Below, piece after piece: positions 56,044 through 57,176 of a DNA stretch of 64,000 nucleotides. Both the position numbers and the translations under genes were made by a program. A model generated the notes under the pieces. That model was given only the letters and a program-made list of their open reading frames with translations, searched no databases and was not told the origin of the DNA. Within the stretch, counting starts at the first letter, position 1. Every line of letters starts with the position of its first letter. Source of the DNA: Anolis carolinensis (taxonomy: Eukaryota); NCBI RefSeq assembly GCF_035594765.1, contig NC_085842.1, forward strand, positions 89,690,782 through 89,754,781. The letters are read 5' to 3'.

Positions 56044-57176
56044 TCTATATATATAAAGGAGAAAAAAACTGGCCGCCGTGATGGTAGCAACAAAACTATA
56101 CATCCCGGAAACACCAAATTTGACAACAGAACCCAGCGGCCATGCCTCTAGGTTCCTAACAACAAACAAAAAATATTAAACACAATCCGCCCCCAAAATT
56201 GCCCAAAAACCACACAAATCAAACAATGCATGCGCCAGACACTAAGTGGCACACACGCACAACAGACACACAACCCGCCATCGTCCTCGACAGCACGAGA
56301 GGGAAGAACAAGCAGCGGATTTCCTTGAGATTCCCCTCACTTCAGAAGGGCAGCGCCACGGACCCACTCCTCCTGTCGGCTGGGAGCTTTTCACCCCCGA
56401 GGGAAAGCTGTGCCACTTGGCGATGATGCTGCTGCTTCCCAATGGGGAGCGTGGGCAGACACCTCCCCGCCCAGCAGCGCTTTCAACATAATTAGGATAA
56501 TAAATATAATAATATATATAAAAACTATGGTATAATAATATATAATAATATAAACTCTAATAACAGGACAGTAAATAAACAGCAACACTCTGAAAACAGG
56601 GCAATTCCAGAAAGAAAACAAACACACCCAGCTAACACCTCTCAATAAAGGAATCACCTAGGCTTTGAAACTACAAGGTCACTAAAGGGTAATCAAGGTG
56701 ACTACTTACAACATTTATTCTTCCCTCCAACAGACAAGATATCATCCTCCCACACTAGATATTATTCCACAGGTATATAAACCACACTTACGTATCTGTT
56801 TCTTACTTAGGTAAAGCCATTGACAATAAAAAAGGCTCCCACCATAAAACATATCTAAAACCAGAACAATAAATACAGAACTACAATCTGAAAACAGGGG
56901 AATTCCAGACAACAAACAATCAGCCAAGCTAACACCACCCAACAAAAGATTCCCCCATGGAAGAATCCGCCAGCCTTTTAGCCTACAAGGCCATTAAATC
57001 CTACTCAACCTGGCCAATTGACTATGCCACAACACACCAACACATCCAACGTATAACCTCCAATAAAAAAACCCAAACAAATACACAGGAATGAATACCC
57101 TTGCACTTTCAAACCCTACCTACTTCTCATTACTTTATTTTCCATGCCACAGCAACGCGTAGCCGGGCAAAGCTAG
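56044..57176 (+). mobile_element. Non-autonomous Helitron E
   Basis: A|TCTATATATATAAAGG ... GCCACAGCAACGCGTAGCCGGGCAAAGCTAG|T; Penelope-derived cargo. Confidence 0.88.

What the first reader, a model, noticed from the sequence alone, without database searches (positions are those of the whole stretch)
56540..57060. Strand-biased guanine erosion of cargo carried inside Helitrons
Seen: Penelope-derived cargo in the Helitrons can be aligned to free Penelope copies in this window. Free copy (minus strand of ~25563-25620): CAGGCTTTGAAGCTGC..AATGC.AATCAAGGTGGCCAATTGC. Helitron E (~56970-57020): CAGCCTTTTAGCCTAC..AATCCTACTCAACCTGGCCAATTG. Helitron E (~56660): GAAACTACAAGG for GAAGCTGCAAGG, and ACACACCCAGC for TCAGGGCCAGC. 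Helitron B (~11700-11755): TTTAAAG for TTTGAAG, ATCCTAATCATTTTT for ATGCTAATCAAGGTG. By eye the changes are mostly G>A, G>C and G>T on the TC...CTAG strand and are not confined to CpG. Helitron D is visibly A/C-rich on that same strand. Established: Helitrons transpose through single-stranded rolling-circle intermediates. Inference: a strand-specific mutational process (oxidation of G in displaced ssDNA, or deamination/abasic bypass of C on the other strand, possibly host editing) acts at each replication round and could serve as a clock for cargo age.
Basis: partly seen in the sequence, partly recalled or inferred. Interest (0 to 1): 0.75.

Follow-up and report, generated by a model that had tools for sequence, protein, structure and literature searches.

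The report
One-strand G loss in lizard Helitrons
Pieces of other mobile elements carried inside these rolling-circle transposons have lost G about twice as fast as C on one strand (G to C and G to A, not G to T), which likely reflects damage copied during transposition, but it is patchy, mostly limited to one kind of cargo, and does not work as an age clock.

Summary
The window holds six non-autonomous Helitrons (A-F) and three free Penelope-like copies. G loss on the TC..CTAG strand is real: 44/164 G versus 27/249 C in cargo, stable to re-alignment, de-clustering and simulation. A likelihood model over all cargo gives a G/C loss ratio of 2.0 on Helitron branches and 1.08 on free ones (difference p=0.01); by type G>C 4.8, G>A 2.0, G>T 1.0. 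So 8-oxoG is out, and no APOBEC-type context is seen. Against: the signal sits in Penelope-derived cargo, all captured in one orientation; other cargo gives 1.15 (p=0.64); A1, F1 and D2 show none; genome-wide variants of Helitron C give 14 versus 11; fourfold sites of related transposase genes give G 51, C 61. Cargo sharing one capture junction differs up to threefold in change, so it is no age clock. Best reading (0.4): transposition-coupled lesion bypass. Cargo source history, selection for a G-poor strand and host-locus bias remain open. Nine literature searches found no report for Helitrons.

The parts
56044..57176 (+). Helitron E, non-autonomous, TC..CTAG between A and T
56551..56789 (+). 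E1, Penelope-derived cargo; 10/29 G and 11/59 C changed
56851..57021 (+). E2, second Penelope-derived unit; 15/33 G and 5/39 C changed
56291..56480 (+). G+C-rich, CpG-rich, unskewed segment of E, source not identified
9945..12231 (+). Helitron B (carries a 306-bp tandem duplication at 11028-11642)
11149..11238 (+). B1, Penelope-derived cargo, 2 changes (copy at 11455-11544)
11613..11789 (+). B3, Penelope-derived cargo; 12/32 G and 3/43 C changed, mostly in its 3' half
10449..11108 (+). older MITE cargo of B, sense on the Helitron top strand, split by a younger copy; ratio 2.4, p=0.09
10646..10966 (-). younger MITE inside B, antisense to the Helitron; ratio 0.53, not significant
10230..10446 (+). 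second MITE-like cargo shared by B, C, F and A; ratio 1.6, not significant
11846..12151 (+). SINE cargo of B; ratio 0.42, not significant
22866..24864 (-). Helitron C, sister of B (about 98% alike), opposite orientation, shares B's G losses
5235..6300 (-). Helitron A (ends CT..CTAA, slightly decayed)
5809..6004 (-). A1, Penelope-derived cargo, no clear bias (4/29 G, 2/42 C)
5262..5800 (-). array of about 70-75 nt Penelope-derived units inside A; ratio 2.2, p=0.002 (with two F units)
46689..47575 (+). Helitron D, A/C-rich top strand
47166..47217 (+). D2, Penelope-derived piece that keeps its G (counter-example)
63101..64000 (+). Helitron F, A-like, cut by an N gap and the window end; F1 at 63658-63855 shows 1/29 G and 6/45 C changed
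25379..25920 (-). free Penelope-like copy P1a (control)
25919..26189 (+). free Penelope-like copy P1b, inverted partner of P1a (control)
33185..33673 (+). free Penelope-like copy P2 (control)
55399..55852 (-). free MITE 190 bp from E (local control); outside CpG columns 3/48 G and 3/36 C changed
7868..8194 (+). free MITE (control)
12247..12981 (+). free MITE split by a free SINE at 12367-12688 (controls)

Best explanation
Cargo in several of these Helitron lineages has lost G on the TC..CTAG strand about twice as fast as C, as G>C and G>A, and this likely comes from DNA lesions copied by error-prone polymerases while one strand is exposed during replicative transposition. Shown: the asymmetry, its type, its absence from free copies, and that in B/C it predates insertion. 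From papers: the plus strand is the one nicked and peeled, and donor and circle are resynthesised (PMC5876387); spontaneous ssDNA substitutions in yeast come mainly from Pol zeta bypass (PMC3799438). Inferred: the lesion. I favour slightly (about 0.22 of the 0.40) cytosine loss on the minus-strand template (deamination, uracil removal, abasic site, then A or C inserted opposite, giving G>A and G>C on the plus strand with no G>T; this chemistry is recalled), over guanine adducts on the peeled plus strand (about 0.18; the polarity fits, but yeast spontaneous G changes were mostly G>T). The excess would count transposition rounds of a lineage, not years.
For: Combined likelihood: ratio 2.02 on Helitron branches (p=2e-6), 1.08 on free ones, difference p=0.01; by type G>A 1.95, G>C 4.81, G>T 0.99 against free 1.28, 1.06, 0.71. 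Counts, alignment and simulation checks. In the ML tree A1, F1 and B1 sit about as far from the root as the free copies (0.09-0.13 against 0.12-0.14), while B3, E1 and E2 are further out (0.18-0.28); E2 versus A1 25:9 private changes, 11 of the 25 at G. G gains are not suppressed (A>G 23/542 against T>C 12/267), which fits mutation better than selection against G. No neighbour context. Five related Helitron ends from metagenome contigs all have negative GC skew upstream on the top strand (-0.04 to -0.25).
Against: Non-Penelope cargo alone gives 1.15 (p=0.64); SINE 0.42 and antisense MITE 0.53 point the other way, though not significantly. A1/F1 0.8; D2 keeps 13 of 14 G. For the Penelope block alone the Helitron-free difference is p=0.013 or 0.09 by tree and p=0.18 by counts. 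The repeat-unit count depends on the threshold (33/86 vs 30/159 lenient, 15/63 vs 30/115 strict). Contigs of four public runs laid on C: of the 40 differences shown (148 more hidden), 39 had the other letter in the majority, with G loss 14 and C loss 11 (p=0.31); over all 162 listed places in run X1 others differ at 42/352 G and 50/440 C; free MITE and SINE copies dilute this pile. Fourfold sites in three related transposase frames: G 51, C 61, which rejects a threefold deficit (p=3e-6). Only about five lineages, one 64-kb window, and the first segments were picked by eye.
Confidence: 0.4

Rival explanations
1. History and small numbers: the 'derived' letters came from other, G-poorer Penelope source copies (sense-strand G loss during retrotransposition) and from chimeric Helitrons, and eye-picking inflated the contrast.
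For: All Penelope cargo is sense on the Helitron top strand. Free copies lean the same way for G>A (14/88 vs C>T 13/165, p=0.056). E2 shares AACCTGG with the A/F repeat units and several changes with B3, which group in the tree at 66%. Helitron 5' ends are far more diverged than their shared cargo, so cargo was swapped. Non-Penelope cargo shows nothing. G>A on the sense strand of retroelements is described (PMC9099904, passages).
Against: G>C is not raised in free copies (2/88 vs C>G 6/165) but is in cargo (13/164 vs 3/249). The likelihood model allows for shared descent and still finds 2.3-3.2; counting each column and letter once leaves 39 G against 22 C. The repeat units diverged from each other and still show the bias.
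Confidence: 0.3
2. Selection among non-autonomous copies for a G-poor, weakly folding plus strand that peels fully and avoids false terminator hairpins.
For: Native ends are A/C-rich in A, B, D and E (GC skew -0.20 to -0.36 at the 5' end) and in relatives from other hosts. The cargo holds GGGCCAGCTAAC, which resembles the 3' end GGGCACAGCTAG, and E1 has eroded it. Coding copies are not G-poor at fourfold sites.
Against: Gains of G are not suppressed. The terminator-like word is intact in A1, F1, B1, B3 and C. Folding of four cargo stretches shows no strong structure to remove (z -1.35 to +1.95). D2 gained G.
Confidence: 0.18
3. Host-locus asymmetry (transcription or replication direction) acting on long-lived master copies, unrelated to rolling-circle chemistry.
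For: It explains the patchiness between lineages. D, E and F lie antisense to a minus-strand host reading frame region (gene name recalled).
Against: B and C share the changes at two loci in opposite orientations, so present loci are not the cause. The free MITE next to E is symmetric outside CpG columns (3/48 vs 3/36). Such biases are usually well under twofold (recalled) and would not always point the same way relative to TC..CTAG.
Confidence: 0.12

Closest known systems
Non-autonomous Helitrons of Anolis carolinensis, Helitron-2N families; Helitron-2N3_AC carries Poseidon (Penelope) and SINE fragments, 2,000 bp, over 1,000 copies (PMC3014272, passages)
   Same: C is 2.0 kb with Penelope-like and SINE cargo; ends and capture of other mobile elements fit.
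   Different: That paper calls composite Helitrons rare and says nothing on substitution bias in the passages read (no hits for 'bias' or 'composition'); here five of six Helitrons carry clear Penelope-like cargo and D a short piece. No sequence comparison with the published consensus could be run.
Strand-specific substitution bias in ssDNA and rolling-circle viruses (PMC9810213, passages)
   Same: Non-reversible, strand-asymmetric substitution tied to unequal time single-stranded.
   Different: Here the element is a chromosomal transposon, the excess is G>C and G>A on the plus strand, and it is patchy between lineages. C>T and G>T on the packaged strand of geminiviruses is recalled, not checked.
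Spontaneous and aldehyde-induced ssDNA mutagenesis in yeast (PMC3799438, PMC12448846 passages; PMC11956917 abstract)
   Same: G on the exposed strand is the main target, through Pol zeta and Rev1; raw cargo counts 22:9:13 (G>A:G>T:G>C) fit the formaldehyde proportions (p=0.30).
   Different: After the C-side background is set against it there is no G>T excess, whereas G>T dominated the spontaneous yeast spectrum; the methylglyoxal motif needs a CpG context that is absent here.
AID/APOBEC-type cytosine deamination with abasic bypass (C>T plus C>G on one strand; recalled)
   Same: Read on the minus strand, the excess is C>T and C>G without C>A.
   Different: No neighbour preference at either side, so an editing enzyme is not indicated.

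Membership tests
non-autonomous Helitron | 5' TC | tested here: met
   B, C, D, E start TCTATATATATAAA; A starts CTATAT; F's start lies in an N gap
non-autonomous Helitron | 3' CTRR | tested here: met
   CTAG in B, C, D, E; CTAA in A
non-autonomous Helitron | subterminal hairpin near the 3' end | tested here: inconclusive
   B folds a 7-pair stem, -5.5 kcal/mol, no better than shuffles; E's stem is broken
non-autonomous Helitron | insertion between A and T, no target duplication, no terminal inverted repeats | tested here: met
   A|TC..CTAG|T in C and E; T|TC..CTAG|T in B and D
non-autonomous Helitron | ends shared with a RepHel-encoding element | tested here: met
   L002 encodes a PIF1-like helicase (E 6e-64) upstream of a 3' end 84% alike to B over 57 nt; Rep domain not seen
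Helitron-2N3_AC | about 2,000 bp with Poseidon and SINE fragments | tested here: met
   C is 2.0 kb with both cargo types (PMC3014272)
Helitron-2N3_AC | sequence identity to the published consensus | not testable with these tools
   no repeat library held
Penelope-like element (cargo source) | RT plus GIY-YIG coding remnant | tested here: inconclusive
   the frame at 33145-33417 has no Pfam hit; the label rests on recalled likeness
Penelope-like element (cargo source) | tandem or inverted pseudo-LTR arrangement | tested here: met
   25379-25610 and 26189-25960 are inverted copies, 84% alike
8-oxoguanine signature | G>T excess on the damaged strand | tested here: not met
   18/250 vs 25/394, p=0.75; ratio 0.99
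AID/APOBEC signature | C>T and C>G on one strand | tested here: met
   minus-strand reading of G>A and G>C
AID/APOBEC signature | sequence motif (TC, CC or WRC on the edited strand) | tested here: not met
   lost/all G by 3' neighbour A 15/55, C 14/59, G 12/69, T 4/12; by 5' neighbour A 21/91, G 15/70, T 9/34; low power
transposition-coupled signature | follows Helitron strand whatever the cargo orientation | tested here: inconclusive
   one young antisense cargo, ratio 0.53, p=0.48
transposition-coupled signature | present in family-shared, absent from copy-private changes | tested here: inconclusive
molecular clock of cargo age | equal change in cargo of equal age | tested here: not met
   E1 20 vs A1 7 private changes behind the same capture junction, p=0.02

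The most novel reading that the evidence does not exclude
Helitron transposition leaves its own mutational signature, a context-free G>C (about fivefold) and G>A (about twofold) excess on the plus strand. It accelerates the most active non-autonomous lineages two- to threefold, drives their A/C-rich composition, records how many rolling-circle rounds a lineage has made, and tells which strand is exposed in the germ line.
Probability: 0.3. Interest if true: 0.75.

Novelty: new variant of a known kind. Interest (0 to 1): 0.47.

Why it matters
Helitron mechanism is known mainly from one rebuilt element in cultured cells. A strand-specific signature in natural copies would show which strand is exposed in the germ line, give a counter of serial transposition rounds, and warn that divergence-based ages of Helitron families and of their captured gene pieces are biased. 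It is cheap to test in any assembled genome rich in Helitrons. If it fails, what remains is ordinary nested repeats.

Tried and rejected
No whole genome is held, so the genome-wide test could not be run. Collection scans: an exact 3' end found nothing in metagenome contigs; viral contigs gave 1, 0 and 1 matches, L001 and L009 look like chance; 45 prokaryote-genome matches, none with the full end; of 7 metagenome matches 5 are Helitron ends and 2 (L003, L007) look like chance. Relatives of the L002 helicase: none in viral or genome contigs. Neighbour-copy (slippage) origin of the new letters: 25 of 44 against 20.3 expected, p=0.08, not shown. D1 (47068-47112) looks strongly G-eroded but its match is not significant (E=1.6) and it was left out of all counts. 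The free-MITE total included a misaligned row and was redone. B versus C differences are too few and unpolarised. No Rfam match in the window. Earlier scan findings: none. G oxidation rejected on spectrum; host editing not supported on context; age clock rejected on unequal change behind one junction. A recalled idea that paraquat causes G>C in ssDNA was wrong: PMC6527239 reports changes at C.

Full report
Setting. The window is vertebrate DNA with anole-type repeats (species inferred from repeat content and PMC3014272, not from a tool). Host frames include an Arf-family exon and two P33MONOX exons. No whole genome is held. A shared 3' end finds Helitrons A, B, C, D and E; F is an A-like copy cut by an N gap and the window end. 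B and C are sisters about 98% alike in opposite orientations. A 3' end 84% alike to B's lies downstream of a PIF1-like helicase frame in metagenome locus L002, which ties these ends to RepHel elements. Three free Penelope-like copies serve as controls; that label rests on the inverted pseudo-LTR arrangement and recall, since Pfam gave no hit.

The observation. Every quoted string is in place. With a leave-one-out majority ancestor, cargo loses 44/164 G and 27/249 C (p=5e-5); free copies 18/88 and 22/165 (p=0.15). With unanimous free copies as ancestor the contrast drops to 28/110 and 36/192 (p=0.19). The result holds under five alignment settings, and 0.2% of 2,000 strand-symmetric simulations reach it. 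It survives removal of clustered changes (p 0.016-0.031) and counting each column and letter once (39 G, 22 C). A pruning likelihood with strand-symmetric rates and one asymmetry factor gives 2.3-3.2 on Helitron branches and 1.2-1.3 on free ones for the Penelope block. Over all six blocks, counter-examples included, it gives 2.02 against 1.08 (difference p=0.01).

The type of change. Pooled Penelope cargo and repeat units: G>A 39/250 against C>T 21/394, G>C 20/250 against C>G 8/394, G>T 18/250 against C>A 25/394. Likelihood factors are 1.95, 4.81 and 0.99, against 1.28, 1.06 and 0.71 in free copies. G>C is the Helitron-specific part. No neighbour preference is seen, and new letters do not clearly copy a neighbour (p=0.08).

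Where it is and is not. By lineage: E 3.6, B/C 11, A1/F1 0.8. Held-out blocks: A/F repeat units 2.2 (p=0.002), older MITE 2.4 (p=0.09), second MITE 1.6, SINE 0.42, younger antisense MITE 0.53; non-Penelope cargo together 1.15 (p=0.64). The repeat count is threshold-dependent. D2 keeps 13 of 14 G. A1, F1, B1 and E1 share the same upstream junction, so they come from one capture, yet E1 has 20 private changes against 7 in A1 (p=0.02) and 19 against 11 in F1 (p=0.2). Equal age does not give equal change, so the age clock fails; a count of rounds remains possible. All Penelope cargo is sense on the top strand, so Helitron strand and cargo strand are confounded.

Outside evidence. Contigs of four public runs were laid on C at 90% likeness. 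Of 40 differences shown (148 hidden), 39 had the other letter in the majority: G loss 14, C loss 11 (p=0.31); shared with B 13 and 9. Over all 162 places in run X1, others differ at 42/352 G and 50/440 C. Free copies swamp several regions, so the test is blunt, but no strong bias shows at shallow depth. Five of seven metagenome matches are related Helitron ends, all with negative top-strand GC skew upstream. In three of them long frames give fourfold G 51 and C 61 (25 C and 29 G outside NCN boxes), which argues against general G erosion in coding lineages; twofold sites are asymmetric (G 21/139, C 89/221), which codon preference may explain. Only L002 has a Pfam match; L006 and L008 are taken as transposase by position.

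Mechanism. Helraiser work shows that the plus strand is nicked and transferred, that donors and circles must be double-stranded, and that the donor is resynthesised and reused (PMC5876387, passages). In yeast, spontaneous ssDNA substitutions arise mainly by Pol zeta bypass of G, mostly G>T, and oxidative stress hits C (PMC3799438; PMC6527239). Formaldehyde and methylglyoxal hit G in ssDNA (PMC12448846 passages; PMC11956917 abstract). Guanine lesions on the peeled plus strand therefore fit the polarity but not the missing G>T. Cytosine loss on the minus-strand template fits the types (recalled abasic-bypass chemistry) but needs that strand to be exposed at the donor or on the circle. I give transposition-coupled lesion bypass 0.40, source history and small numbers 0.30, selection for a G-poor plus strand 0.18, host-locus bias 0.12.

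Known or new. The elements are ordinary members of a described group; C fits the description of Helitron-2N3_AC (PMC3014272 passages). Strand-specific substitution is known for ssDNA viruses (PMC9810213 passages). I found no report of it for Helitrons in the listings, nor in passages of a review on transposon base composition (PMC9099904); the library lacks most subscription journals, and supplements were not read. PMC9635668 and 10.1101/2022.07.14.500049 were read in passages and added nothing decisive.

Verdict. It deserves the genome-wide test. Interest 0.47.

Noticed in passing
window 5262-5800 (-) and 63859-63985 (+): An array of about 70-75 nt units made from a Penelope-like piece fills the 3' half of Helitrons A and F; its units are far more diverged from each other than the neighbouring A1 unit is from free copies.
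   Followed up: partly
window 57020-57031: GACTATGCCACA matches the subterminal stretch of Helitron D (47539); it may be a relic inner 3' end of E whose hairpin is gone. L008 has a similar doubled 3' end (about 1008-1076).
   Followed up: no
window 11660-11673 and the matching places in A1, F1, B1, C: The Penelope-like cargo holds GGGCCAGCTAAC, close to the Helitron 3' end GGGCACAGCTAG; E1 has eroded it.
   Followed up: partly
Helitron 3' ends at 5235, 22866, 47575, 57176: Against B's end, the last 30 bases show 5 G losses and 2 C losses, some breaking the hairpin or CTAG, so probably after insertion; too few to weigh, but this would count against a transposition-only cause.
   Followed up: no
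window 56291-56480: A G+C- and CpG-rich, unskewed insert in E of unknown source; similar unskewed segments follow the 5' end in B and D.
   Followed up: no
5' ends of A, B, D, E, F: The 5' ends differ strongly between families while the MITE-Penelope junction is shared, which points to cargo exchange between Helitron families.
   Followed up: partly
window 11028-11642: An exact 306-bp tandem duplication in B, absent from sister C; recent or an assembly artefact.
   Followed up: no
L002, L006, L008: Helitron transposase frames from metagenome contigs show strong twofold-site asymmetry (G 21/139, C 89/221) but none at fourfold sites.
   Followed up: partly
window 3013-4035 (-), 31873-32961 (+), 27218-27741 (-), 53100-54531: Remnants that look like a Tc1 transposase and several LINE reverse transcriptases (labels recalled from the translations).
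   Followed up: no
window 60946-61779 (-), 20789-21073 (-), 36875-43692 (+): Host exons: a SUMO-interacting-motif protein like SIMC1 (name recalled), an Arf-family GTPase and P33MONOX (Pfam).
   Followed up: partly
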